This document shows, piece after piece, positions 3,033-41,288 of a stretch of 64,000 bases of DNA (position 1 is the first letter of the stretch; every line of letters starts with the position of its first letter). The notes below the pieces were generated by a model. That model was not told where the DNA came from, did no database searches, and saw nothing but the letters and a program-made list of their open reading frames with translations. The stretch comes from a virus: the IMG/VR virus record IMGVR_UViG_3300045988_169015, positions 78,001 to 142,000 of that record; one strand, 5' to 3'. The position numbers and the translations under genes are program-made.

Positions 3033-3476
3033 TTACTGGATATAGCTGCGATAGATTATGAAACTATCGGTCAGTTTACGGAACCAGCCGGGCGTTTCCC
3101 ATTTAAGGGTACCGTTAAGACTTCCGATTATAATAGCGGCACAAAGCTTTGCGTGCATTACATCTCGGTTATCGTTACGGTAAAAGTCGGTCATGCTCAG
3201 CTCATCGGCAGACAGAGGTTTAAACAGGTAAGTCTTGCGGCTGTTCTCACTGCTCGGTGACGAATGAATAAAGTTCTCGTAAAGAGTTACCAGATCGTCA
3301 TAGCCGGACACAGGAGACCCCAACGAGTCGATAACTTCGCCGCCTATCATATCAGCTACAAGCTTGCCGTTTTCCATTACGACACGCTTATCTATTCTGA
3401 TATTCTTTTTGACCAGATCGAACCTGAGCTTATGCCCCGATTCTGATTTTGCAATTAACGCATCATACAGCGTCAT
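3033..3476 (-). CDS. hypothetical protein (147 aa), translationally coupled to the RT
   Basis: ATG at 3476 with AAAGGAGG 9 nt upstream, lying inside the last 14 nt of the RT gene (track start 3485 is a GTG). Confidence 0.75.
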   Translation of the reverse strand: MTLYDALIAKSESGHKLRFDLVKKNIRIDKRVVMENGKLVADMIGGEVIDSLGSPVSGYDDLVTLYENFIHSSPSSENSRKTYLFKPLSADELSMTDFYRNDNRDVMHAKLCAAIIIGSLNGTLKWETPGWFRKLTDSFIIYRSYIQ

Positions 3477-4842
3477 GTATAACACCTCCTTTTATTTTGT
3501 TTATCTCGCTCAGCCAGAGTTCGTGGTCGGTATGATAGACTTTGTACATATGATTAAGGCTGTACCAACCGGCAGCCCTTACCATATCTATTCCGTCTGC
3601 CACAGTCCTTTTCCTGTTGGCTTTAACGTTTATTCCTTTCTGGAACTGGATCGTGTAATTGGGGTTATTATCTGTAGAACCGAGACCCCAAACCTTATTG
3701 CGACCTGTTATCACTGCTCTTAAACAATCTTTACAATACCTGTCTATCATGTCGATATCATGTTTGCAGTTAACGGTTCCGAACAGATACTGACACATGC
3801 CGAACTGGTTGCTGTTCTCTTCATATGCAAGGAACAGATACCTCTGGAGCCGCCTGCATATCCGCTTGGTCTCCGCTTCGGTAGCCGGTCTTTTGTGTTC
3901 TCTGCTCCACTGTATCGTTTCAGATTTTATATGCTGCTCGATACCTCTGAGAGTTTTTGCAGACACAGTTATCAAGTCGCCACGTATCTTAAAGCCCAGA
4001 AACTCGAACCAGTCTTTATCTGCCTGTAACGCTTTGACCTTTTTGGGATTAAGAGTTACACCCTTTGGTTCGAGCATCTGCTTTATAACTTCGAGGGCGT
4101 GGTCAGCTTCCCTGCCGAGGATTATGATATCGTCAGAATAGCGATAATAGATAACATCCATATTACTTATGGTCTCATCTATATCTCTCAAGCACAGGTC
4201 AGCCAGCAGACAGGCGATAGGATTGCCCTGACTTAGTGATTTATATCTGTATTCGGGTTTTCCGTTTATGATTATAGTATCGTCGTGATAATGTTTAATT
4301 ACTATGTTATCGATACAATCCTTATCGGGAGTTATGATATCGAGTGTTCTGTCAAGCGTTTCACGATTTACGGTATCAAAGAACTTGCTCAGGTCAAGCT
4401 TGTATCCTTTGTACCATTTCTTACGGTTCATCTCACTGACAAGAGCCTTTACGGTCTTGCCGGCTGACAGTCCCCTGCGGTAAGAAACGCAGTTAGGATG
4501 TATCAGGTGGTGAAAATCGTCGTAATACATCTTATAGAATGTATTGCACAGAACTCGGTCAAACGTTTCGAGAACTGCAAGCTTGCGGACTTCTTCAAAG
4601 TTTCGCTTCTCTGCTTCGGCGAATGTCAACCAGTTGTCTGTAAGCTTGTCAATGTACATCTCTACAGGGGCTTTGAACTCGATTTTGCAATTAGCGATAA
4701 GGTCGCCTGCAAGAGCCCACGCTGCATCTTGCGAAAACGTGGACAGCACGCACATATCGAGTCCCTTGCGGTCGATGTGCAAAAGCGCTCTTTCATGCAG
4801 CTCTCGGTCGTTCACAAACCGTTCAAGTTTATTCGGTTTCAT
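3463..4842 (-). CDS. reverse transcriptase (RNA-directed DNA polymerase), unclassified group
   Basis: 459-aa ORF. RT motifs read by eye: KLDLSKFFDTV (motif 2), SLSQGNPIACLLADLCL (motif 4), YYRYSDDIIILG (YxDD), LNPKKVK (motif 6), FEFLGFKI (motif 7), plus about 180 aa of C-terminal extension. SD GGAAAGGAG. Confidence 0.9.
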   Translation of the reverse strand: MKPNKLERFVNDRELHERALLHIDRKGLDMCVLSTFSQDAAWALAGDLIANCKIEFKAPVEMYIDKLTDNWLTFAEAEKRNFEEVRKLAVLETFDRVLCNTFYKMYYDDFHHLIHPNCVSYRRGLSAGKTVKALVSEMNRKKWYKGYKLDLSKFFDTVNRETLDRTLDIITPDKDCIDNIVIKHYHDDTIIINGKPEYRYKSLSQGNPIACLLADLCLRDIDETISNMDVIYYRYSDDIIILGREADHALEVIKQMLEPKGVTLNPKKVKALQADKDWFEFLGFKIRGDLITVSAKTLRGIEQHIKSETIQWSREHKRPATEAETKRICRRLQRYLFLAYEENSNQFGMCQYLFGTVNCKHDIDMIDRYCKDCLRAVITGRNKVWGLGSTDNNPNYTIQFQKGINVKANRKRTVADGIDMVRAAGWYSLNHMYKVYHTDHELWLSEINKIKGGVIHDAV

Positions 4843-4958
4843 TTATCTCTTCTCCTTTCCGATTATTCTTATTACAGTTATCAGTTCATCGTCATACAGA
4901 TAACATTCGCAGTCATCTCCATGACGGCATGATGTTGTCCCCTTGTCATCATATACAG

Positions 4959-5126
4959 TTATTCTTCTTCCACCTCCCAAGTATCTGTTTCTGCATCGTC
5001 AAGATAGAGATTACAGTTATTATAAAATGATTTCTCTGCCGCTTTCACCGCTGCATCTTTATTTTCAGCTTCGATGTGAAGCGTTGTATATCCAGTTACT
5101 AAAAGTGTTACACTGTACTTCTTCAT
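4959..5126 (-). CDS. hypothetical small protein (55 aa)
   Basis: Below the track cut-off. ATG at 5126 overlaps the upstream TGA (ATGA); GGAGG 7 nt upstream; MKKYSVTLLVTGYTTLHIEAENKDAAVKAAEK... Confidence 0.5.
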   Translation of the reverse strand: MKKYSVTLLVTGYTTLHIEAENKDAAVKAAEKSFYNNCNLYLDDAETDTWEVEEE

Positions 5127-5371
5127 TTATAAGCCTCCTCTACTGTATATGTAACGATGTTACCGTCGGTCAGACTTATTGTTTTCAGATTCTCCCTTTC
5201 GTCGCACGTTTCATCTACGTGTATGTGAAGGTTGTCATATTCCAATAAGTCAAGGCAGTATGCCCTCTGCAGTTCTTCAACTGCGGTATCATAATCATCG
5301 CAGAGCTGAACAAGAAGTATGCCGTCATAAGCACTGCGAATAATTACAGCATAACCTATCTGATTCATCAC
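5123..5371 (-). CDS. hypothetical protein (82 aa)
   Basis: ORF track; GTG 5371 or ATG 5368; packed head to tail with neighbours. Confidence 0.7.
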   Translation of the reverse strand: MMNQIGYAVIIRSAYDGILLVQLCDDYDTAVEELQRAYCLDLLEYDNLHIHVDETCDERENLKTISLTDGNIVTYTVEEAYK

Positions 5372-5374
5372 CTA

Positions 5375-5548
5375 TCACTTCTCCTTTATAGATATGATTA
5401 CATTTTTCCTAACCTTGAAATTATCGAAAACGAATAACATCTTTGTTTCCTTTTCAAATTTTCCGGTTAGAATAACGTCGCACGTCACCAGCGGTTTCGT
5501 ATGGACTTTTATTCTTTTGGTTATTTCATATGACTGACCTATGTTCAT
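5375..5548 (-). CDS. hypothetical small protein (57 aa)
   Basis: Below the track cut-off; ATG at 5548 preceded by TAACTGCAAAAGGAGAACGAGA; MNIGQSYEITKRIKVHTKPL... Confidence 0.55.
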   Translation of the reverse strand: MNIGQSYEITKRIKVHTKPLVTCDVILTGKFEKETKMLFVFDNFKVRKNVIISIKEK

Positions 5549-5567
5549 TCTCGTTCTCCTTTTGCAG

Positions 5568-13657: not shown

Positions 13658-14434
13658 TTACGCATTTACGCCTTCGCCCTGATTGTCGATCGCATCAAGG
13701 GGAACGTAATTATCGTGGGCGAATTTGACCAGTTTAAGAAATGCGTTAAAATCCATTCCGTACTTTTCCATGCCTCTGAGCTTGCCCTTGTTTATGCAAG
13801 TCAGCATCTGAGACTGGATCTCAGGAACGCACTTGCAAATATAAGCAAATTTAAACCGTTCCAGCATGGGAGAGAACAGCTTTTGTAATGCGGCTTCGTT
13901 CATCTGTTCAAACCGATTCTTCATATCATAGTATGCCTTGACGTTTGGGTCTTCGTTGATTGTTTTGTCGATGTGTATGAGCACATCTATTGGACTGACA
14001 TACTCGGTAGCAGGTTCGGGATTTGCGGTTACGGGGACAACGACGGCAGAAGTTTCGGGCTCCGACTTTGCCGATTTGCCGTTAAGATATTCCTTGAAAC
14101 CGTCAAGTGTCTCTCTGGAAAAACGATTAGGAAATTGTCCCCTGCCATGAATGTCGGGGACTATGAGTCCCCTCTTTATGTAATAGTTCAATGTGGGATA
14201 TGAAATTCCCAGATATTTAGCTGCTTCTGAACTGGTCAGCATATCGGAATTTCCGACTACACCTTCGACATAGCGAAGGATATCCTCTTTTGTCCACTTG
14301 CTACGATTCGCATTGCGAAATGCAAGGCGAATTGTAGAATGTGGTGCATCAATAATATGTGCGACCTGAGAAATGGTAAATTCGGTCTGTGCTGTTACCT
14401 CGAGAGCTGCTTTGATTTCTGCGATTGTTTTCAT
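13658..14434 (-). CDS. DNA-binding protein with two helix-turn-helix segments (excisionase/MerR-like)
   Basis: FTISQVAHIIDAPHSTIRLAF and LTSSEAAKYLGISYPTLNYYIKRGLI resemble excisionase-family HTH. ATG 14434 with AAAGGA upstream (track TTG 14452). Confidence 0.7.
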   Translation of the reverse strand: MKTIAEIKAALEVTAQTEFTISQVAHIIDAPHSTIRLAFRNANRSKWTKEDILRYVEGVVGNSDMLTSSEAAKYLGISYPTLNYYIKRGLIVPDIHGRGQFPNRFSRETLDGFKEYLNGKSAKSEPETSAVVVPVTANPEPATEYVSPIDVLIHIDKTINEDPNVKAYYDMKNRFEQMNEAALQKLFSPMLERFKFAYICKCVPEIQSQMLTCINKGKLRGMEKYGMDFNAFLKLVKFAHDNYVPLDAIDNQGEGVNA

Positions 14435-14453
14435 AATATCATTTCCTTTCAAA

Positions 14454-14472
14454 TATCTAATATGTTTAGGCG
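14454..14472 (-). promoter_or_regulatory. isolated inverted copy of the array box (CGCCTAAA-cata-TTAGATA on the minus strand): candidate operator or promoter
   Basis: The plus strand reads TATCTAA-TATG-TTTAGGCG. It sits 20 nt upstream of the HTH gene start, between that start and the stop of the preceding ORF. Confidence 0.5.
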
Positions 14473-14473
14473 A

Positions 14474-14650
14474 TTACGCAAGTTCTCTTGCAAGGTCACG
14501 CTTGCAAAGAACTATCTCTGCCTTAACGGTTGAGATGTTATCTCTTATTAAGGCAGCCTCATATTTGCTGTTTGCAGATATGAGGTCGGAATTAAGGTCG
14601 GCGAGCTGTTTTGTTAGCATCGCCAATTCCTGCTTGTAGTATTCAGCCAA
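14474..14650 (-). CDS. small coiled-coil protein (58 aa)
   Basis: Below the track cut-off. TTG at 14650 overlaps the upstream gene end; (M)AEYYKQELAMLTKQLADLNSDLISANSKYEAAL...; heptad-like sequence. Confidence 0.45.
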   Translation of the reverse strand: MAEYYKQELAMLTKQLADLNSDLISANSKYEAALIRDNISTVKAEIVLCKRDLARELA

Positions 14651-14906
14651 TGTACTTCACCGCCCTTTTTAATATGTGTTCGCAACCGTATTTTACAGTT
14701 GTAAAAATGACTGTCTTGATAATAAACAGCCAGTCATATACACATCTTGCGATTATCCCGCAGAACAGTGCGGGGAAAATTACTATTCCTGTCATATCCT
14801 GCTCCCATGGAGAAATCAGGGAAACAAGAATTATTGTTGCTACGATAATGGCAACGGAGAGTACATGCCACTCGGTGGGAGCGTATTTGTGTTTTGCAGT
14901 TTTCAT
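14643..14906 (-). CDS. small membrane protein (87 aa, 2-3 predicted TM helices)
   Basis: ORF track; hydrophobic stretches VLSVAIIVATIILVSLI and IVIFPALFCGIIA; SD AAAGGAG; starts MKTAK. Confidence 0.75.
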   Translation of the reverse strand: MKTAKHKYAPTEWHVLSVAIIVATIILVSLISPWEQDMTGIVIFPALFCGIIARCVYDWLFIIKTVIFTTVKYGCEHILKRAVKYIG

Positions 14907-14949
14907 TCAGAAAACTCCTTTCATATGTATTTTGCAGTTACCTGCTGGG

Positions 14950-16150
14950 GCGGAGTGATTGGTAGAGCAGCACCCCGCTAAGCTGCTTGTGGTGTTAGGG
15001 CATTGGTATCACGTCCTTTCGTTGATTTCGGGTTTTGTTCAGGCAGTTCCCGAAACTGCTCTTGTGATTACTGACATAACTACCTCCAAAGTCCACCACG
15101 GACTTTTACTTTTTAATTTAAGCCCCTGACTATCGACCAACCCAGTTCAGATTTGCCGTGTGGGATTATCGGTTCGCATTTACCAAGTGCGAATCGTACA
15201 TCCTACGTACAGAGCTGTCGGATGTCAGGTTCGTGCCGCCTATTTCCGGTCGCTGGCACTTGGACCATTAGTAGTGCATTGGAAACACCTACTTTCTAAT
15301 ATTGCTTGGCAATTAGACGATGAGTGTCAGAGGACACTCAAAATTGCGCAGCTTGAACTCGTTCCAGTCTGCAGAATAGGTATGACCTGCGAACTTGATA
15401 AATGCTATGGACGAATCCATAGCGTCTCTGCGAAGGGTTATGTCACTCCGTGAGTGACAGCCCAGTGCAAAGAGGTTAAGTGTGAGATTGGGCATAGTAG
15501 TTTCCTTTCTGCTCGGTTTAATGACATGAGCTGGTCGATAAGTTGTGCTCCGCCGCCCTCGTGCAGACTTTGGAGTGTATTAAGGGTGTGCAAGAATAGC
15601 TCTTCGCATTTTACGGGCAAGGCATTTGCTAAACGTGTGCTCACGTACCAGTGCCCAACTTGCTGCCTGCTCACACATTGCTGTGTGGTAACACCCTTAT
15701 TGTTTGTGCGGATTTCCGCAAAAAAATGAGCGGTTTAATGACGTGCTCAGGTCAAAAGTGATACTATTCGCTAAGGTGGAATTCCATATAAAGAACCAAT
15801 GTGTAAGCATGGTGGGTCATAGCGCATACTACTATATGCCAGCAACAACCAGTTGCTCAAGAAATACATAAGACTAACCACTATAGTCTTACACATACTT
15901 GTGGAGTAATACTTGTCCGTGTTCTCTATACGGGCGTATGAATTTATTTTCAACTTTTTTACCCCTCATGAGCGATAAAATTACCCCCTGTCGGCGCTCA
16001 TCTCCGCAGAGGGTTAGTGGGTTGGAGCCATTTGTTTTAGGTCGTTGACCCCAACAGGACGACCTGTGCCCGGTATTGGGCATGGCGTGGCATAGGATTA
16101 CCTCACTTACTGAGCTTTTGCGCCTGTACTGCCTTAATCTGCTCGGGAGT
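14950..16150. ncRNA. candidate large structured non-coding RNA region (class and strand unresolved)
   Basis: No ORF with an SD. Visibly GC-richer than the flanks. Perfect hairpins at 15088-15106 (7 bp), 15322-15339 (7 bp), 15404-15423 (8 bp), 15442-15458 (7 bp), 15672-15687 (6 bp), 15841-15857 (6 bp), 15869-15891 (8 bp), 15968-16001 (7 bp), plus many imperfect ones. Confidence 0.45.
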
Positions 16151-16158
16151 AAGCAGAT

Positions 16159-16764
16159 TCATAATAAACGTAACCATGGTTTCGTTCTGCTCATTCTTAG
16201 CCTTTCAGCCTCGTATGCCTCCTTGTTCTTACGCATCTGCTCTGCAAGATCGTCCATTTCGGACTTGCTTGTCTTACGGGAAGACTTAGGGTCACACCAT
16301 GTTCCGTCGTTGAGAACATGATTAGTAAGGTAGAGAGCATATTTGATAAATGTAGACTTGGTAGTGTAACCGCCAAGGACACTTTTTTCCTTGGTGTCTT
16401 TATCGGTCTTAGTCTGTCTCTTAGGGGCAAAGAGAGCCGTGAGCATAGCTATATTTCCTATGCCGCAACCGAGACCAACCGCTTTAAGATATGAGCGGGC
16501 AAAGTCGTGAGCTTTGTTGACCGATTTATCTCTCTGGTTGTCAGTCCGTGATGTGGCGGCGGTTTCAAGATACTCAAAGACCTTGACAAGGTTGCCGAGA
16601 GCAGACTTGGCGGACTCGTCCTCGATGTCGGACAGCTTGGGGGCGTGTGCAAAGCTGTCAGCAAGAGCTGTTGTTGTCATGACAATATACTTGCCGTCAC
16701 TGGACTTCTTCTTGTAGGTTACGGGCGCATTGATGATAGCGCTGAATGTAGAGTTAATAGTCAT
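16159..16764 (-). CDS. hypothetical protein (201 aa)
   Basis: ATG at 16764 with GGAGG 5 nt upstream (track start 16788 lies upstream of the SD); its stop is followed directly by hairpin 16134-16158. Confidence 0.7.
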   Translation of the reverse strand: MTINSTFSAIINAPVTYKKKSSDGKYIVMTTTALADSFAHAPKLSDIEDESAKSALGNLVKVFEYLETAATSRTDNQRDKSVNKAHDFARSYLKAVGLGCGIGNIAMLTALFAPKRQTKTDKDTKEKSVLGGYTTKSTFIKYALYLTNHVLNDGTWCDPKSSRKTSKSEMDDLAEQMRKNKEAYEAERLRMSRTKPWLRLL

Positions 16765-16916
16765 AAAGACCTCCATTTTTAAAGTCACGTGGACTATATA
16801 TTTGAGTGTTTAGCACTCTATAGAGCGCACAAAGTCCGCACGGTTATCCCTATGCAAAGCGGCGGAAATGTTGGCGGTATGCGCTCGAACAATGCTAAAA
16901 TGCCCCATTATTTCAC

Positions 16917-17977: not shown

Positions 17978-18013
17978 TAGAGTATTAAAACACATTAGAA
18001 AGGGTTGACCAAT

Positions 18014-18814
18014 ATGTACGCAATAGCCAATTCGCCCGTAGTTTCTCTCGCCAATGTTATCAACATAGATCGTCGTCCGAAACCTGTCCCCTCTAATTAC
18101 ACGGCCCGAGGAAAGCGCAAAGCAACACCGGGAGACCCATTCCGAGAGCTCTCAGACATTCAGCTTTTCAAGAACTACTTTCACGAGCACTCCCTCCGTA
18201 ACTATGCACTCTTTGTCCTTGGCATTTCAATCGGTATAAGAGGCAAAGACTTACTCCGCCTGCAAGTTCGTGATGTAGTAACCAACGACGGGTTCGTTGC
18301 TGATGAGATATCAACTTTCGAATCTAAGACACACAAGATGAACCACCCAATCATCAATGCCGAAGCCAAGGCAGCAATAGCTGAATATTTGAGCAGTCTT
18401 TCCGTAGTTCACCCCGATGACTATCTCTTCAGAGCCTCGTCTGACGAAAACAAGCCTCTTGAAACTAATTCTCTTCGTCGTCTTCTGGTCAGAGCAAAGG
18501 AAGCGCTTGCTCCTCAGCTCTCATGTAACTTCAGTCTCAACGTTCGTTCACTTCGCAAGACGTTCGCATATTGGATAATTGTTCAGCATTATGATGATCC
18601 CCACGTAATGGCTTCACTGCAGGAAATGCTCAACCACGACTCAATGCTCACAACGCTCCATTATTCCGGACACACTCGTGATCATCTGTCCGTCATGTAC
18701 CAAGACATGGGAAACGTTGTTGCTGGCACGGCAACCAGAGCTCTCCCTCAAACAGAAAGTGTCGAAGCAATGCTCGAAAAGCTGCTTGATGCCCTTAAGC
18801 TCGATGCTGAGTAA
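18014..18814 (+). CDS. int: tyrosine recombinase / integrase
   Basis: ORF track 18005..18814 (TTG); ATG at 18014. Catalytic-domain-like segments GIRGKDLLRLQ, SLRKTFAYW, LNHDSMLTTLHYSGH (terminal Tyr region). Confidence 0.75.
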   Translation: MYAIANSPVVSLANVINIDRRPKPVPSNYTARGKRKATPGDPFRELSDIQLFKNYFHEHSLRNYALFVLGISIGIRGKDLLRLQVRDVVTNDGFVADEISTFESKTHKMNHPIINAEAKAAIAEYLSSLSVVHPDDYLFRASSDENKPLETNSLRRLLVRAKEALAPQLSCNFSLNVRSLRKTFAYWIIVQHYDDPHVMASLQEMLNHDSMLTTLHYSGHTRDHLSVMYQDMGNVVAGTATRALPQTESVEAMLEKLLDALKLDAE

Positions 18815-25630: not shown

Positions 25631-26656
25631 ATGACAATAAATGAAATCAAGTTTGCGCTCCGCAGCTCTGAATACAGCTTCCTGTCGGATAATCCACATC
25701 TTGGCTCTAATATCATCTTGTTGACAGTCGGCGGTTCCCACGCTTACGGAACGGATACGCCCACCAGCGACTTGGATATCCGAGGATGTGCTCTGAATAC
25801 TCCAAGGGAGCTGCTTACCAGCGAAAATTTCGAGCAGTTTGTAAATGAGGAGACCGACACGACGATATATTCGTTCAACAAGTTGGTCTCACTGCTCACT
25901 AATTGTAACCCCAACACCATCGAGATGCTGGGAAACAAGCCAGAGCATTATTTCTATATCTCCCCTATTGGGCAGGAACTTATTGACAACGTTGAGCTGT
26001 TTCTCTCCCAGAAGGCAGCATACAGCTTCGGTGGGTATGCAACCGCTCAGCTTCGTCGCCTTGAAAATAAAGCCAACCGCCTTGTTGGTCAGGAACAGCT
26101 GGAACAGTATATCTATAACACACTGTCTCAAGTTGCCGAAAACTTTGAAGAAAAATATGGTATTCCTGCTGGTCAGCTTCGACTGTATATCGACAAGGCT
26201 GTAAATCCCGATATGGAAACTGAGATTTTCATGGACACTAACTTGACTCACTACCCTATCAGAGACTACGCCGGAATGTGGGATGAAATGAAGAGCATTA
26301 TCAAGTCTTACAATAACATCGGCTGTCGCAATAGCAAGGCTATCGAAAACGGAAGGCTTGGCAAGCATATGATGCACTTGATTCGTCTGTATCTCATGTG
26401 TACTGACATTCTTGAGGGACGAGGCGTAATAACATACCGTGAAAAGGATCGTGACCTGCTGATAGACATCCGCAACGGCAAGTACCTTGATGAAAATCAG
26501 CAGCCCACTTCCGAGTTCTATGAGATGATAGACGAATATGAAAAGAAATATCAGTATGCGAAAGAGCACACTGAACTCCCACCTAAGCCAAACTACAAGG
26601 CAATAAATGATTTCGTTCAGAGCGTCAATGAAAGAGTGATAAAAAATGAAGTATAA
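25631..26656 (+). CDS. RlaP-like (pol-beta superfamily) nucleotidyltransferase
   Basis: LLTVGGSHAYGTDTPTSDLDIRG is the GS..YG...SD.D signature remembered for the RNA-repair-associated RlaP family. Confidence 0.65.
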   Translation: MTINEIKFALRSSEYSFLSDNPHLGSNIILLTVGGSHAYGTDTPTSDLDIRGCALNTPRELLTSENFEQFVNEETDTTIYSFNKLVSLLTNCNPNTIEMLGNKPEHYFYISPIGQELIDNVELFLSQKAAYSFGGYATAQLRRLENKANRLVGQEQLEQYIYNTLSQVAENFEEKYGIPAGQLRLYIDKAVNPDMETEIFMDTNLTHYPIRDYAGMWDEMKSIIKSYNNIGCRNSKAIENGRLGKHMMHLIRLYLMCTDILEGRGVITYREKDRDLLIDIRNGKYLDENQQPTSEFYEMIDEYEKKYQYAKEHTELPPKPNYKAINDFVQSVNERVIKNEV

Positions 26657-27986
26657 AATTGATATGCCGCCCAATGCAAATGTAATCATTCATGCACTTC
26701 AAGATGCAGGTTACAAAGCATATATCGTTGGCGGCTGTGTCAGAGATAGTCTAATGAACAGATTTCCTCATGACTGGGATATATGCACTTCTGCGAGACC
26801 GGAGCAAACGCTTGAAGTGTTTAAAGATTACCGTGTTATCGAGACGGGGTTGCAGCATGGCACGGTAACAGTAGTCATTGATGGCGAGCAGTATGAATGC
26901 ACTTCGTTTCGTATCGACGGGGTGTATTCCGACAATCGCAGACCTGACAGCGTGACGTTCGTTGATGATCTTACAGAAGACTTAAGACGTCGAGATTTTA
27001 CAATCAATGCAATGGCATATAATGACGAAGAAGGTCTTATCGATCCGTTTGATGGAATGGGTGATATAAAGCGTGGCATAATCAGATGCGTTGGGAATGC
27101 GGCAGATAGGTTTAACGAAGATGCTCTCAGAATACTTAGAGCCATTCGATTTGCCGCACAGCTGCGTTTTGTTATTGAAGACAACACGTCTTCTGAACTA
27201 AACAGACAGAGGGATTCTTTAGCAAATATATCCACTGAAAGAATTACCAGCGAATTCAATAAAATCGTTATATCCAATCGATTTGTCACAATGTTAGTCC
27301 TATATTTTCACGTATTCACACAATTTATTCCAGAGCTTAAGGATATGCTTAAGTTTCCTCAGAATAATCCTCATCATATGTACGATGTACTTATTCACAC
27401 ACTTTATACAGCAGTATCCTGTCAGAACGATCTTATCCTTCGATTGGCGGCATTATTCCACGATATCGGGAAACCTCATTCATACCAAGACGAACCTGAC
27501 GGTATCAGACATTTTGTGGGACACAATATTGTCGGGGCGGATATGACAGATAAAATCATGAGGCGCTTGAAATATGACAGCAACACCCGAAATGCTGTTG
27601 TTCAGTTGATTTTATATCACGATTCTTCGTTTATAGCAAAGCCATCAGCTGTTAAGCGTTGGCTAAACAAAGTGGGAGAAGTTCAATTAAAGCGTCTCAT
27701 CGATCTTCGCAGGGCTGATATTAGGGGGCAGAAAATTCCTTATGATAGGGAGAAAATGAGGAAAATTGATGATCTTGCAGATGTTTTAAACCAAGTTCTC
27801 GAAGAACAACAATGCTTTTCTATGAAAGACCTCGCAATCAATGGAGATGATCTTATTGTCTTGGGTTTTGTCCCGGGCAAGGAATTAGGGGAGGTGCTCA
27901 CAGGGTTGTTAAACTCCGTAACAGATGACGCTCTTCCGAACGATAAAGAAACGCTTTTAAAGGAGGCTCAGAAATGGCTCAAGTAA
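26646..27986 (+). CDS. cca: CCA-adding enzyme / tRNA nucleotidyltransferase with HD domain
   Basis: GGCVRDSLMNRFPHDWDICT head motif; RRDFTINAMAY; HDIGKP HD motif. Confidence 0.85.
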   Translation: MKYKIDMPPNANVIIHALQDAGYKAYIVGGCVRDSLMNRFPHDWDICTSARPEQTLEVFKDYRVIETGLQHGTVTVVIDGEQYECTSFRIDGVYSDNRRPDSVTFVDDLTEDLRRRDFTINAMAYNDEEGLIDPFDGMGDIKRGIIRCVGNAADRFNEDALRILRAIRFAAQLRFVIEDNTSSELNRQRDSLANISTERITSEFNKIVISNRFVTMLVLYFHVFTQFIPELKDMLKFPQNNPHHMYDVLIHTLYTAVSCQNDLILRLAALFHDIGKPHSYQDEPDGIRHFVGHNIVGADMTDKIMRRLKYDSNTRNAVVQLILYHDSSFIAKPSAVKRWLNKVGEVQLKRLIDLRRADIRGQKIPYDREKMRKIDDLADVLNQVLEEQQCFSMKDLAINGDDLIVLGFVPGKELGEVLTGLLNSVTDDALPNDKETLLKEAQKWLK

Positions 27987-31108: not shown

Positions 31109-32233
31109 GTGGAAATAACAGTGGCATTATCGGTTTATAAGGATCATTCATTCTTAATTTTTAATCAAGACGATAAGATTTGCAAATATGATTTTGCAAC
31201 AAAGACTACATACGGATGGAGTGGAAGAAAAGTCAATTCGCTTCAAACACAGCTTCGTAATATTTCAATAAAAGAATTAATTGATGCCTGCTCCGATAAA
31301 AATTATGGTTTATTTTTACAGTCTATTATGGAATGGGAAGTAAAGGGCGGATCCAATATTTCAAATATAGGAACAATTTTAGATCGCATTCCTTTATATT
31401 CCAATCTTGAACAATATTACAGCGCAGGAATAACAAATATAAGTAAAAATATGTACGCAATACCCTTTTCCGATATTCCTAAAGGATTAAAAAAGATATG
31501 TAAAGAAAATAATATCTGTTTACAGCAAAACACATATGAATCCTATAAAAAACACGCAGATATATTTAATTTTGCAGCTTCGGAGCAACTTACGTCTCTT
31601 TCGTTTGGAACTATCGTAGAATATATACTTGCTCAACATGATTATCGAAATAATGATTTTTATATTGATTCTTTTATCAGATATAATTATCAGCCTAAAG
31701 CTCTCCTTAGATACATAGACGACCTGATAACTTACGAAGCGTGTAATTTAAATATCATAAGAGAAGTGCTCGATTATGCAACTATGATGTCAAAAATCAG
31801 TCCTAAATTTGATAAATACCCTCGACATTTTCTTACTACTCACGCTATCGCTTGTCGAAACTATAATCGTTTAAAACAGCAGTTTCAAGAAGATCAATTT
31901 GTAGCAAGAATAGATACTACTCTTGAAGACAAAATTGATGGGTATGTATTCATATATCCCAAGAGCTCTCAAGATATTAAAGATGAAGCCGTACAGCAGA
32001 ACAACTGTGTTGCTTCATATATTAGTAGGGTTATATCCGGTGATTGCCATGTCATGTTTATGAGATACGCTGCTACTCCAAATGACAGCTTGGTAACTTT
32101 AGAGATCCGAGACGGTTATATTGTTCAGGCAAAGCAGAGATTTAATGATCCTATTACTAAAGAACAGCAAGAAGCAATCGACAAATGGAACGTGAAGCAT
32201 CAACAGTCCAATATATTGACACAGAGAGGTTAA
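31109..32233 (+). CDS. PcfJ-like domain protein
   Basis: C-terminal DEAVQQNNCVASYISRVISGDCHVMFMR...VTLEIRDGYIVQAKQRFN recalls the PcfJ-like family (from memory); GTG 31109 or GTG 31121. Confidence 0.55.
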   Translation: MEITVALSVYKDHSFLIFNQDDKICKYDFATKTTYGWSGRKVNSLQTQLRNISIKELIDACSDKNYGLFLQSIMEWEVKGGSNISNIGTILDRIPLYSNLEQYYSAGITNISKNMYAIPFSDIPKGLKKICKENNICLQQNTYESYKKHADIFNFAASEQLTSLSFGTIVEYILAQHDYRNNDFYIDSFIRYNYQPKALLRYIDDLITYEACNLNIIREVLDYATMMSKISPKFDKYPRHFLTTHAIACRNYNRLKQQFQEDQFVARIDTTLEDKIDGYVFIYPKSSQDIKDEAVQQNNCVASYISRVISGDCHVMFMRYAATPNDSLVTLEIRDGYIVQAKQRFNDPITKEQQEAIDKWNVKHQQSNILTQRG

Positions 32234-41213: not shown

Positions 41214-41288
41214 GGTGCGATGGTCAAGTGGTTAAGATGGTGCCCTTTCACGGCGTCGGCTCGGGTTCGAATCCCGATCGCATCCCCA
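41214..41288 (+). tRNA. tRNA-Glu (anticodon UUC), CCA encoded
   Basis: Hand-folded cloverleaf. Acceptor GGTGCGA/TCGCATC; anticodon stem GTGCC/GGCGT with loop CTTTCAC; T arm TCGGG-TTCGAAT-CCCGA; discriminator C, then CCA (41286-41288). Confidence 0.85.

What the first reader, a model, noticed from the sequence alone, without database searches (positions are those of the whole stretch)
14950..16150. 1.2-kb ORF-free, hairpin-dense, GC-richer segment: candidate large structured RNA
No reading frame here has an SD or protein-like sequence, yet the segment sits inside a tightly packed operon. It contains at least five perfect hairpins with stems of 7 bp or more and small loops (15088, 15322, 15404, 15442, 15869). 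It also has several 6-bp hairpins, including one that gives a GCAA tetraloop on the minus strand (15672-15687), and many nested imperfect helices. For random sequence of this length I would expect on the order of one or fewer such 7-bp hairpins. Large ornate ncRNAs (ROOL, GOLLD) are known from prophages of Firmicutes, so this could be a member or a new class. A decayed gene remnant is the alternative. The G:T wobbles I could find (GGTTC/GGACC near 15230-15275, AGGCAGTT/AACTGCTCT near 15040-15062) favour the plus strand, but only weakly.
Basis: partly seen in the sequence, partly recalled or inferred. Interest (0 to 1): 0.7.

Follow-up and report, generated by a model that had tools for sequence, protein, structure and literature searches.

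The report
Structured RNA within a phage gene mosaic
The flagged 1.2 kb is not one giant RNA but a patchwork in a gut phage's early operon: a real 60-amino-acid gene, a frameshifted gene tail, strain-specific filler and one roughly 400-base conserved RNA, of unknown function, that matches no catalogued RNA family.

Summary
The hairpin density is real: 5 perfect hairpins of at least 7 bp against 0.45 expected, the densest tile in the 64 kb. The reading as a single 1.2-kb plus-strand RNA does not hold.

All flanking genes are on the minus strand. Comparison with about 15 related gut-phage lineages splits the segment into modules:
- **16105-16206:** the out-of-frame tail of the upstream gene, caused by a 1-nt deletion in this window.
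- **15969-16093:** a conserved noncoding module with a terminator-like hairpin.
- **15542-15968:** a 430-nt noncoding insert found only in this lineage and, in part, in one other.
- **15313-15495:** a genuine 60-aa gene. It has an SD, is 60 codons in every lineage, has dN/dS of 0.1-0.2, and its AlphaFold model has pLDDT 89. It holds three of the five hairpins, and two of those three are not conserved.
- **About 14926-15340:** a noncoding element that stays 85-94% identical where synonymous sites next door are saturated.

This last element has 1-nt indels and no codon periodicity. Thirteen of its base pairs show compensatory changes (0 of 500 shuffles reach that), and a GNRA hairpin covaries on the minus strand. 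It has no Rfam match. It is a candidate new structured RNA of about 400 nt. It is dispensable, because some lineages have deleted its core. Its function is not known.

The parts
16105..16206 (-). Displaced C-terminal coding tail of the upstream gene, which is annotated mechanically as the 209-aa ORF 16159-16788. The window lacks one A in an A-run at about 16206, so the last 33 codons (...AKNEQNETMVTFIMNLLTPEQIKAVQAQKLSK*) are read in another frame and end at TGA 16105-16107.
   Evidence: L006 is identical to the window across 14608-16177 and has one extra A at 16206. The shifted-frame translation matches the C-termini of the intact 215-218-aa homologues in L010 and L012.
15969..16093 (-). Module A, a conserved noncoding stretch directly after the upstream gene. 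It has hairpin A1 (AGGTCGT/ACGACCT, 16039-16065) and a G+C-rich hairpin A2 (CCCTCTGCGG 16004-16013 with CCGACAGGGGG 15984-15994) followed by the U-rich TAATTTTAT (15975-15983), which looks like a terminator or attenuator. An 18-codon mini-ORF with an SD starts at 16093, but its frame is not conserved.
   Evidence: Module A is 87-100% identical in nearly all related loci. Indels change the frame of the mini-ORF between lineages. The sequences are too conserved to show compensatory changes.
15542..15968 (-). Module C, a lineage-specific noncoding insert. It contains the 8-bp hairpin at 15869-15891, the GNRA hairpin CACACA-GCAA-TGTGTG (15672-15687) and a degenerate second copy of the downstream leader (GTCATTAAACCG, once within module C and once in the leader at about 15516-15527).
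   Evidence: The whole module is present only in the window and L006. Its 3' 280 nt (15545-15822) are 84% identical in L027, with 1- and 2-nt indels and no gene called there. All other lineages have about 30 nt in its place.
15496..15541 (-). Conserved leader with a Shine-Dalgarno sequence (AAAGGAAA). It precedes whichever gene comes next: the 60-aa gene here, and a 127-159-aa gene in other lineages.
   Evidence: It is 98-100% identical in L001, L003, L008, L009 and L011, up to and including the ATG.
15313..15495 (-). A real protein-coding gene of 60 aa (MPNLTLNLFALGCHSRSDITLRRDAMDSSIAFIKFAGHTYSADWNEFKLRNFECPLTLIV) with no known relatives of assigned function.
   Evidence: It is 60 codons long in every full-length homologue. 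There are 16 clusters in the protein database, 14 of them 60 aa and two shorter (55 and 35 aa), and gene callers predict it on many contigs. dN/dS is 0.1-0.2 with synonymous sites near saturation. The AlphaFold2 model has mean pLDDT 88.7. It has no Pfam, PHROG or PDB match. Hairpins 1 and 2 are absent from most lineages.
14926..15340 (-). Module B, the candidate structured RNA. From 5' to 3' on the minus strand:
- Conserved hairpin at the end of the 60-aa ORF (15321-15340).
- H1, AGGT 15287-15290 with GCCC 14998-15001, which closes a core of about 290 nt.
- H2, TTCCAA 15279-15284 with TTGGAG 15084-15089.
- Hairpin H4, 15233-15259.
- A 110-nt extended arm, H5-H9, 15122-15232.
- An A-rich linker.
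- Hairpin H10, 15088-15106.
- H11, 15064-15083.
- H12, 15025-15056.
- H15, GCGGGG 14973-14978 with CTCCGC 14950-14955.
- GNRA hairpin H16, 14934-14945.

The SD (14915-14922) and ATG (14904-14906) of the next gene follow.
   Evidence: It is 85-94% identical among lineages whose neighbouring gene has dS of about 0.6 to more than 2. It has 1-nt indels and no codon periodicity. In the 13-sequence alignment A6, 13 pairs carry compensatory changes and 98.8% of cells are paired, with 0 of 500 shuffles reaching this and slid controls giving 4 pairs or fewer. The arm folds the same way as the minimum-free-energy structure in five divergent lineages. It has no Rfam match and is single-copy in the window.
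15272..15296 (-). The 5' copy of a 25-nt imperfect direct repeat (GAAAGTAGGTGTTTCCAATGCACTA) bounding the core of module B.
   Evidence: There are two copies in the window against 0 expected by chance. Lineages L001, L011, L018-21 and L027 have one chimeric copy and lack the roughly 250 nt between the repeats.
14996..15020 (-). The 3' copy of the 25-nt direct repeat (GAAAGGACGTGATACCAATGCCCTA).

Best explanation
The flagged interval is a hypervariable accessory stretch of the long minus-strand operon of a temperate tailed phage (Caudoviricetes) from human gut metagenomes. An integrase gene and a divergent promoter region lie just upstream. The stretch is built from modules that related phages gain, lose and swap at short repeated junction sequences.

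Most of the interval is noncoding, but it is not one RNA gene. It contains a frameshifted gene tail, a conserved terminator-like module, a lineage-specific noncoding insert, a bona fide 60-aa gene, and one element under strong nucleotide-level and base-pairing constraint (about 14926-15340).

I interpret that last element as a structured RNA domain of about 400 nt, transcribed on the minus strand as part of the operon transcript. No promoter or terminator of its own is evident on that strand. Its core of about 290 nt is closed by a long-range helix and contains a 110-nt extended arm and several hairpins. A tail with two hairpins, one a GNRA tetraloop hairpin, ends directly at the ribosome-binding site of whatever gene follows.

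**Shown:** the conservation, the absence of coding, the covariation, and the dispensability (two kinds of natural deletion).

**Inferred (about 35% of my belief):** it acts in cis on the transcript. In this reading it sets the stability, processing or translation of the downstream cassette. Its invariant GGAGG-N5-AUG segment is paired with an upstream UUCCAA in the consensus fold.

**Also open (about 30%):** it is cut out and acts in trans as an autonomous accessory RNA.
For: - **Strand and context.** The genes flanking the interval are on the minus strand. An integrase lies at 18005-18814, a large terminase subunit is in the window, and relatives are IMG/VR viral contigs and human-gut assemblies.
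- **Mosaic structure.** BLAST against relatives shows blocks present or absent with sharp junctions.
- **60-aa gene.**
- **Frameshift.**
- **Module B conservation.** It is 85-94% identical while dS in the adjacent gene is 0.6 to more than 2.
- **Not coding.** Variable sites show no 3-nt periodicity (p=0.42), and single-base indels are scattered through it.
- **Structure, minus strand.** The RNAalifold consensus has 89 pairs, 13 of them with compensatory changes (33 cells). 98.8% of cells are paired, the covariation term is -2.4, 0 of 500 shuffles reach the observed values, and slid controls give 4 pairs or fewer. Compensatory changes cluster in hairpin H9 (G-C to A-U in L015 and L026; two more in L028), in H15 (three pairs) and in the long arm (L028). 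The arm is recovered as the minimum-free-energy structure in each of five lineages on its own. In the five-sequence alignment, variable columns are enriched in unpaired positions (p=0.0017).
- **Strand evidence.** The plus-strand consensus is worse: 9 pairs, 15 cells, 97.5% paired, covariation term +0.48. In strand-neutral Watson-Crick helices, 14 changed cells are G-U on the minus strand against 5 on the plus strand. H16 keeps a GNRA loop (GUAA, GCAA or GAAA) while its stem changes from GCAG/CUGC to AUGGC/GCCAU.
- **Dispensable.** The core is precisely absent in L001, L011, L018-21 and L027, and 63 nt are deleted in L008.
- **Not a known family.**
Against: - There are no expression data, so transcription, ends and processing are unknown.
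- The single-sequence folding energy of module B on the minus strand is unremarkable (z = -0.67), while the plus strand gives z = -3.0.
- On the plus strand, hairpin 15088-15106 is followed by a T-rich tract that stays T-rich in all lineages although its sequence varies. That is how an intrinsic terminator of an antisense transcript would look.
- The consensus structure was predicted from the same alignment on which covariation was counted. There are only about 12 lineages, several compensatory changes come from one divergent sequence (L028), and most pairs never vary.
- The high identity could partly reflect recent exchange of the module between phages and not purifying selection.
- The proposed cis role has no direct support, and the downstream gene differs between lineages.
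- Natural deletions show that the element is not needed for viability.
Confidence: 0.62

Rival explanations
1. The whole 1.2 kb is a single large ornate noncoding RNA on the plus strand, related to or comparable with ROOL or GOLLD.
For: Hairpin density is exceptional. The plus-strand fold of the 311-nt module B core is more stable than shuffles (z = -3.0).
Against: - A conserved protein gene sits in the middle on the other strand.
- About 430 nt (module C) are missing from nearly all relatives, and about 250 nt (the core of module B) are missing from others, independently of each other.
- No Rfam large-RNA family matches even at E<=10.
- Two of the five hairpins are not conserved.
- Covariation and GNRA loops fit the minus strand better.
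Confidence: 0.02
2. Module B encodes a plus-strand (antisense) small RNA that ends at the hairpin 15088-15106 and the T-tract after it. This RNA would regulate the minus-strand operon transcript by pairing with the region of the invariant GGAGG-AUG mini-ORF, as in antisense or type I toxin-antitoxin-like control.
For: A terminator-like site lies on the plus strand (AAAGTCC-ACCAC-GGACTTT followed by TACTTTTTAATTT). T-richness after the hairpin is kept in all lineages although the sequence varies. The plus-strand folding z-score is -3.0. The minus strand carries a perfectly conserved SD plus ATG that is predicted to be sequestered, and a long-range 5'-3' helix, as toxin mRNAs do.
Against: - No credible plus-strand promoter was found upstream. 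The best candidate is TGGTATCAC at about 15004-15012, a poor -10 that the scan did not report and that is absent from L026.
- The mini-ORF encodes 12 hydrophilic residues here, and 22-28 or more in other lineages, with changing frames. It is not a membrane toxin.
- The L003 substitution in this hairpin gives G-U on the minus strand but C-A on the plus strand.
- The overall pair statistics favour the minus strand.
- This model does not explain the conservation of the other 300 nt.
Confidence: 0.12
3. Module B works as DNA, not RNA. It could be a replication origin, a single-strand origin, or a cluster of protein-binding sites. In that case its conservation and palindromes reflect DNA-level recognition or folding of single-stranded DNA.
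For: It is a conserved noncoding island with inverted repeats, an A/T-rich tract and flanking direct repeats. Watson-Crick compensatory changes are strand-symmetric, so they would equally fit folded single-stranded DNA.
Against: - The core is cleanly deleted in several otherwise intact lineages, and partly deleted in L008, which is hard to reconcile with an essential origin.
- It has no iterons. The palindromes differ in sequence, so there is no common operator.
- The asymmetry in G-U pairs and the conservation of GNRA loops point to RNA of one strand.
- It is not attP, because the region is contiguous with the integrase in long, probably integrated contigs of 237-402 kb.
Confidence: 0.1
4. 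The noncoding parts are decaying remnants of genes (pseudogenes) or junk left by recombination. Their hairpins are accidental and they have no function of their own.
For: - 16105-16206 really is a frameshifted gene tail.
- Module C is found in only two lineages and contains a degenerate duplicate of the leader, as expected of recombination scars.
- Junctions fall at short repeats that resemble gene starts (SD-ATG-CCC).
- Hairpins 1 and 2 are recent and lineage-specific.
Against: For module B, neutral decay is contradicted by 85-94% identity where neighbouring synonymous sites are saturated, by compensatory base-pair changes, and by the preserved fold in the most divergent lineage. Module A is also 87-100% conserved in nearly all lineages. 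No protein similarity was found for any ORF in these stretches.
Confidence: 0.12

Closest known systems
ROOL (RF03087) and GOLLD (RF01998), large structured RNAs common in prophages of Firmicutes
   Same: Module B is also a noncoding RNA candidate of several hundred nucleotides with a multi-helix fold. It is phage-borne, dispensable, of unknown function, and sits among small hypothetical genes (from my own knowledge of these families).
   Different: It has no sequence or structure match to either covariance model, even at E<=10 with permissive filters. It is shorter, about 400 nt against roughly 580 and 800. It appears to lie inside a polycistronic operon, directly abutting the next gene's ribosome-binding site, and not to be a free-standing gene.
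Structured mRNA leaders and intercistronic elements that control downstream expression (riboswitch or attenuator expression platforms, and phage processive-antitermination RNAs such as HK022 put)
   Same: It is on the same strand as the operon and has no promoter or terminator of its own. Its structured tail ends at the downstream SD, and an invariant SD-like GGAGG is paired with an upstream anti-SD-like UUCCAA in the consensus.
   Different: It matches no riboswitch, T-box or leader family. The gene downstream differs between lineages (87-, 173-, 91-, 63-, 201- and 84-aa genes). The core is far larger than put (about 70 nt, from my own knowledge) and lies about 1.9 kb from the presumed promoter region.
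Type I toxin-antitoxin toxin mRNAs (hok/sok, fst/RNAII, bsrG/SR4)
   Same: It is a highly folded RNA of 300-400 nt with a long-range 5'-3' helix, a sequestered SD in front of a small ORF, and a terminator-like hairpin on the opposite strand. It is also accessory prophage cargo with presence/absence polymorphism.
   Different: The small ORF is 12 hydrophilic codons here, and its length and frame vary between lineages. It encodes no membrane peptide. No antisense promoter was found.
Group I introns of phages
   Same: Module B is a structured element of about 250-300 nt with precise presence/absence at one locus in related phages.
   Different: - No group I model matches.
- It interrupts no protein or RNA gene that I can recognise.
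- The possible junctions within CCAATGC cannot give both a U at the end of the 5' exon and a terminal G on the intron.
- The flanks are imperfect 25-nt direct repeats, which fits deletion by recombination.

Membership tests
ROOL / GOLLD / other Rfam large RNAs (OLE, HEARO, raiA, 6S, tmRNA, RNase P) | A match to the family covariance model at or near the curated gathering score | tested here: not met
   At gathering thresholds, cmscan of the whole window finds only tRNA-Glu at 41214. Scans at E<=10 of 14400-16700, 14900-15350 and 15490-16120, and a scan at E<=1 of five divergent homologous loci, give only chance-level hits to unrelated small families.
Structured noncoding RNA (generic) | Nucleotide conservation beyond the neutral expectation, without coding signal | tested here: met
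   Module B is 85-94% identical where dS of the adjacent gene is 0.6 to more than 2. It shows no 3-nt periodicity and has 1-nt indels. No ORF is conserved.
Structured noncoding RNA (generic) | Base pairs maintained by compensatory substitutions (covariation) | tested here: met
   13 of 89 pairs carry double changes (33 cells). 0 of 500 shuffles reach this, and slid controls give 4 or fewer. The same fold is recovered independently in five lineages. Caveats: there are about 12 lineages, and the structure was predicted on the same alignment.
Structured noncoding RNA (generic) | A stable transcript of defined strand and ends | not testable with these tools
   No expression data were available. 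Strand is inferred as minus from G-U asymmetry (14 against 5 cells), pair statistics and covarying GNRA hairpins. The folding z-score points the other way.
Protein-coding gene (the ORF at 15313-15495, minus strand) | Conserved length and frame, purifying selection on amino acids, a ribosome-binding site, and a foldable product | tested here: met
   It is 60 codons in every full-length homologue. dN/dS is 0.1-0.2. An AAAGGAAA SD lies 7 nt upstream. The AlphaFold2 model has pLDDT 88.7.
Group I intron | A conserved catalytic core (model match), a U at the 5' splice site and a terminal G, and insertion in a functional gene | tested here: not met
   There is no model match. The junction sequence cannot satisfy both splice-site rules, and no host gene spans the site in lineages that lack the element.
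Type I toxin-antitoxin locus | A small hydrophobic toxin ORF of about 25-60 aa conserved in frame | tested here: not met
   The only ORF preceded by an SD encodes MSVITRAVSGTA (12 aa). It is 22-28 or more aa with frame changes in other lineages, and it is not hydrophobic.
Type I toxin-antitoxin locus | An antisense RNA with its own promoter and terminator | tested here: inconclusive
   A plus-strand terminator-like hairpin with a T-tract is present and conserved. No convincing plus-strand promoter was found.
Noncoding RNA partner of a defence-type reverse transcriptase (retron or DRT-like) | It is encoded next to the RT gene and is present or absent together with it | tested here: not met
   The phage RT (3463-4842, PADLOC RT_UG27, E=5e-86) lies about 10 kb away with many genes in between. 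It is 97-98% conserved both in a relative that has the core of module B and in one that lacks it.
Intrinsic terminator (module A hairpin A2) | A G+C-rich stem followed directly by a U-tract on the transcribed strand | tested here: inconclusive
   CCCTCTGCGG...CCGACAGGGGG is followed by TAATTTTAT on the minus strand and is kept in most lineages. The loop is long and the U-tract is interrupted, and the pattern scan did not report it.

The most novel reading that the evidence does not exclude
Module B (14926-15340, minus strand) is the founding member of a new class of large, complex-folded phage RNAs. In this reading it is an autonomous accessory RNA of about 300-400 nt that is excised from the early transcript. 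It would then act in trans during infection or lysogeny, for example as a decoy or regulator aimed at a host or competitor system. Like ROOL, GOLLD and HEARO before their functions began to emerge, it would be an orphan large RNA with a sophisticated fold.
Probability: 0.3. Interest if true: 0.75.

Novelty: new variant of a known kind. Interest (0 to 1): 0.5.

Why it matters
Bacterial and phage noncoding RNAs longer than about 300 nt with multi-helix folds are rare, and they have repeatedly turned out to have unusual biochemistry. This element has no Rfam counterpart. It shows covariation in several helices, and natural deletion variants provide ready-made controls. It lies in the hypervariable, early-expressed accessory region of a family of human-gut temperate phages, the kind of locus where phages keep host-takeover and counter-defence cargo. 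It is therefore a concrete, testable candidate for a new phage RNA function.

The negative part is just as useful.

Tried and rejected
- **Stop-codon reassignment.** I tested whether it hides a long gene. All three stop codons occur in all six frames, so this is rejected.
- **DNA similarity to known phages and plasmids.** Sensitive blastn found no match.
- **A host-derived sequence such as attP or a host RNA gene fragment.** An invariant 20-mer has no match in 185,579 GTDB species genomes. The locus is contiguous with the integrase in very long contigs. Rejected.
- **More copies in IMG/VR by DNA patterns.** Only the two contigs already known were found.
- **A second copy in the window.** The nhmmer profile and a covariance model of the long arm, run with filters off, find only the element itself.
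- **A link to the phage reverse transcriptase.** Rejected.
- **An ORF-free gap upstream of the RT as its noncoding RNA.** That gap holds plausible small minus-strand ORFs. I did not pursue it.
- **Function of the neighbouring proteins.** The 60-aa, 87-aa, 128-aa, 173-aa and upstream-gene (215-aa homologue) proteins have no informative Pfam, PHROG or PADLOC match, and the searches run against NCBIfam and PDB sequences, and the fold search with the 60-aa model, were also uninformative.
- **An alternative helix pairing GGUAGUUAUGUC with GGACGUGAUACC.** It was predicted from 5 sequences. In the larger alignment it is broken in L026 and L030 and is no longer part of the consensus fold.
- **Covariation in module A.** None was found, because the sequences are too similar.
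- **Coding on the plus strand of module B (56- and 97-aa ORFs).** There is no periodicity and the ORFs are not kept in all lineages.
Full report
**1. What is in the sequence**

Five hairpins with a stem of at least 7 bp and a loop of 3-10 nt compare with a mean of 0.45 in 500 dinucleotide-preserving shuffles. The 1200-nt tiles that cover this region are the only ones in the 64-kb window with five or more.

The GC excess is slight: 0.43-0.48, the same as the coding sequence on the high-coordinate side. All three stop codons interrupt all six frames, so a recoded genetic code does not hide a long gene. The longest mechanical ORFs are shorter than 100 aa.

**2. Context**

The genes on both sides are on the minus strand. 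They are a 209-aa ORF at 16159-16788, an 87-aa membrane-like ORF at 14643-14906, a 58-aa ORF, a 264-aa HTH_17/MerR-type protein, and a long run of further genes. An integrase lies at 18005-18814 on the other strand. The window also holds a large terminase subunit, a 2098-aa ORF, a tRNA-Glu, a CCA-adding enzyme and a reverse transcriptase.

Relatives are IMG/VR viral contigs and human-gut metagenome assemblies. One database name for the family of the small gene is 'Caudoviricetes sp.'. So this is the leftward (minus-strand) operon of a temperate tailed phage, starting next to the integrase.

**3. Known RNA families**

Rfam 15 at gathering thresholds finds only the tRNA. I also ran permissive scans at E<=10 over 14400-16700, 14900-15350 and 15490-16120, and at E<=1 over five divergent homologous loci. 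They gave nothing but chance-level hits to unrelated short families. The segment is not ROOL, GOLLD, a group I or II intron, a riboswitch or any other curated family. Sensitive blastn finds nothing in GenBank phages or PLSDB plasmids.

**4. The segment is a mosaic**

I used the flanking proteins and the small ORF as anchors and collected about 30 loci, representing roughly 15 distinct lineages. All statements below use the minus-strand orientation. BLAST shows sharp-edged blocks:

- Window 16072-15969 is 87-100% conserved in almost all lineages.
- Window 15969-15542 is present only in the near-identical L006 and, for its 3' 280 nt, in L027. Other phages have about 30 nt there.
- A 45-50-nt leader (15541-15496) is 98-100% conserved.
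- The ORF at 15495-15313 is present everywhere.
- The following 400 nt are conserved in most lineages. About 250 nt (15272-15020) are cleanly missing in L001, L011, L018-21 and L027, and 63 nt (15160-15097) are missing in L008.

Other lineages carry extra genes at the same junctions. A 127-159-aa gene sits after the leader, a 101- or 105-aa gene after the small ORF, and 173-, 91-, 63-, 201- or 84-aa genes after the noncoding block. This is a hypervariable accessory region, not a single gene.

**5. The gene tail**

L006 is identical to the window from 16177 to 14608. It has one more A in the A-run at 16206. With that base, the upstream gene reads on to TGA at 16105-16107, ending ...TFIMNLLTPEQIKAVQAQKLSK. 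This matches the C-termini of the 215- and 218-aa homologues in L010 and L012. The window therefore carries a frameshift, or an assembly error, and about 100 nt of the 'ORF-free' segment is displaced coding sequence.

**6. The 60-aa gene**

The minus-strand ORF at 15313-15495 starts 7 nt after AAAGGAAA. It is 60 codons in every full-length homologue. The protein database has 16 clusters, 14 of them 60 aa and two shorter (55 and 35 aa), on hundreds of contigs where gene callers predict it.

Pairwise dN/dS is 0.1-0.2, with dS from 0.6 to saturation. AlphaFold2 with the family alignment gives a confident small sheet-plus-helix fold (pLDDT 88.7). It has no PDB, Pfam or PHROG relative.

- The hairpin at 15441-15459 is perfect only in the window's own lineage, though L026 keeps 7 of its 8 pairs.
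- The hairpin at 15404-15423 is confined to the clade with the 'AMDSS' protein variant.
- The hairpin at 15321-15340, at the very end of the ORF, is kept in most lineages. In the L012 clade it is kept through a G-C to C-G double change.

So the claim that no frame has an SD or protein-like sequence is wrong, and hairpin density as such is not evidence for an RNA gene here.

**7. The conserved noncoding element (module B)**

From the end of the small gene to the SD of the next gene (15340-14926), twelve lineages share a block that is 85-94% identical. In the same lineages, synonymous sites of the adjacent gene are at or near saturation.

The block is not coding. Variable positions are spread evenly over the three phases (42/49/55, p=0.42). 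Single-base indels are scattered along it, and no ORF on either strand is kept in all lineages.

RNAalifold on the 13-sequence alignment A6 (minus strand) predicts 89 pairs in 16 helices:

- A four-pair helix H1 (15287-15290 with 14998-15001) closes a core of about 290 nt.
- H2 pairs UUCCAA (15279-15284) with UUGGAG (15084-15089).
- These are followed by H11 and H12.
- After H1 come H15 (14973-14978 with 14950-14955) and the tetraloop hairpin H16 (14934-14945). The next SD is at 14915-14922.

Thirteen pairs carry compensatory double changes (33 cells) and 98.8% of cells are standard pairs. None of 500 column shuffles reaches these values, and sliding the partners by 1-3 columns leaves at most 4 such pairs.

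The changes are concentrated in particular places:

- H9: G-C to A-U in L015 and L026; U-A to C-G and C-G to U-A in L028.
- H15: three pairs.
- The long arm: three pairs in L028 and one pair with three different types.
- H1: three pairs.

The long arm is recovered as the minimum-free-energy fold when each of five lineages is folded alone, including L028. In the five-sequence alignment, variable columns are enriched in unpaired positions (p=0.0017).

**8. Which strand**

Watson-Crick covariation cannot tell the strands apart, so I looked at asymmetric signals.

- In helices defined only by Watson-Crick pairs in the window sequence, 14 changed cells become G-U on the minus strand and 5 on the plus strand.
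- The best plus-strand consensus has fewer compensated pairs (9 pairs, 15 cells), more broken cells (97.5% paired) and an unfavourable covariation term (+0.48 against -2.4).
- H16 keeps a GNRA tetraloop on the minus strand (GUAA, GCAA or GAAA) while its stem is replaced: GCAG/CUGC, UGCAG/CUGCA, AUGGC/GCCAU.
- The GCAA hairpin in module C is GUAA in L027.

Two observations point the other way. The plus strand of the window sequence folds better than shuffles (z = -3.0), whereas the minus strand does not (z = -0.67). On the plus strand, the 15088 hairpin is followed by a tract that stays T-rich in all lineages, like an intrinsic terminator.

I judge the minus strand more likely, at about 3:1. 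An antisense small RNA, instead of or in addition to the minus-strand RNA, is not excluded.

**9. What it might do**

On the minus strand I find no promoter in front of the element and no terminator behind it. The element is therefore probably part of the operon transcript. Its tail always ends at the ribosome-binding site of the next gene, whatever that gene is.

It contains an invariant GGAGG-N5-AUG that opens a mini-ORF of 12 codons here. In other lineages the mini-ORF has 22-28 or more codons and changes frame. In the consensus fold this segment is paired with the upstream UUCCAA.

My preferred reading is that the element acts in cis on the stability, processing or translation of the downstream cassette. 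This is an inference, at about 35%. An excised trans-acting RNA is about as likely, at about 30%.

The element is dispensable, because two kinds of natural deletion exist. The 250-nt deletion runs between two imperfect 25-nt direct repeats, GAAAGNANGTGNTNCCAATGCNCTA. That fits loss, or gain, by recombination at these repeats.

It is not the RNA partner of the phage's UG27-type reverse transcriptase. That gene lies about 10 kb away and is equally present in a relative that lacks the core. It is single-copy in the window, and an invariant 20-mer from it is absent from 185,579 reference genomes.

**10. The other noncoding modules**

Module A (16093-15969) is strongly conserved. It holds one hairpin with a conserved 13-nt loop and a G+C-rich hairpin followed by UAAUUUUAU, so a terminator or attenuator after the first gene is plausible. 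The sequences are too similar to test covariation. Its SD-preceded 18-codon mini-ORF is not kept in frame.

Module C has too few relatives to judge. Its 3' half is noncoding in both lineages that carry it, with 1- and 2-nt indels. It carries a degenerate duplicate of the leader, which looks like a recombination scar.

**11. Verdict**

The observation of hairpin density is confirmed. The observation of an ORF-free segment, and the interpretation as one 1.2-kb plus-strand RNA related to ROOL or GOLLD, are not.

What survives is smaller but real: a conserved, covarying, dispensable RNA candidate of about 400 nt with no counterpart in Rfam, embedded in a mosaic accessory region of a gut phage operon. 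It is a new family within a known kind of thing, namely orphan structured RNAs of phages. Its function remains to be found.

Noticed in passing
window 3463-4842 (minus strand): A phage-encoded reverse transcriptase of 459 aa (Pfam RVT_1). Its best match is the PADLOC model RT_UG27 (E=5e-86, full length), and it falls below the cut-offs of the group II intron, retron and Drt models. It lies in the same long minus-strand gene run as the finding and is 97-98% conserved in two IMG/VR relatives.
   Followed up: partly
window 16206 (A-run) within ORF 16159-16788 (minus strand): A one-base deletion relative to an independent, otherwise identical assembly (L006) truncates the upstream gene and displaces its last 33 codons into another frame. 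It could be a real frameshift mutation, slippage at the homopolymer, or an assembly error.
   Followed up: yes
window 15404-15423 and 15441-15459 (inside the 60-aa gene): Two perfect 8-bp hairpins with 3-4-nt loops, one with a UUCG loop on the minus strand, have arisen recently inside a 183-nt coding sequence. One is perfect only in the window's own lineage (L026 keeps 7 of 8 pairs). The other is restricted to one clade. Three such hairpins in so short a gene is far beyond chance and remains unexplained.
   Followed up: partly
window 25631-27986 and 41214-41288 (plus strand): The window holds a cluster of RNA-related genes: an RlaP-family nucleotidyltransferase (RNA repair pathway), and a CCA-adding enzyme with an HD domain. 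A tRNA-Glu (UUC) lies further on. This suggests that the phage repairs or supplies tRNAs.
   Followed up: no
window 15088-15115 (plus strand): A terminator-like hairpin (AAAGTCC-ACCAC-GGACTTT) is followed by TACTTTTTAATTT on the strand opposite to the operon. T-richness is kept in all lineages while the sequence varies. It may mark the end of an antisense transcript.
   Followed up: partly
loci L010 2253-2570, L030 1200-1505, L001 6840-7226, L003 5590-6111: Related phages carry different small genes of unknown function at the same junctions. One, in L030, has a precomputed Pfam hit to STIV_B116-like. Each is inserted right after a reused SD-ATG leader. The locus behaves like a cassette site for accessory genes.
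   Followed up: partly
window 31109-32233 (plus strand): A 374-aa protein has a PcfJ-like domain (E=1e-15), a family known from conjugative plasmids, here in a phage context.
   Followed up: no
window 4843-5567 (minus strand): The 725-nt gap in the 120-aa ORF list upstream of the reverse transcriptase is not empty. It holds three plausible small minus-strand ORFs of 57, 82 and 55 aa.
   Followed up: partly
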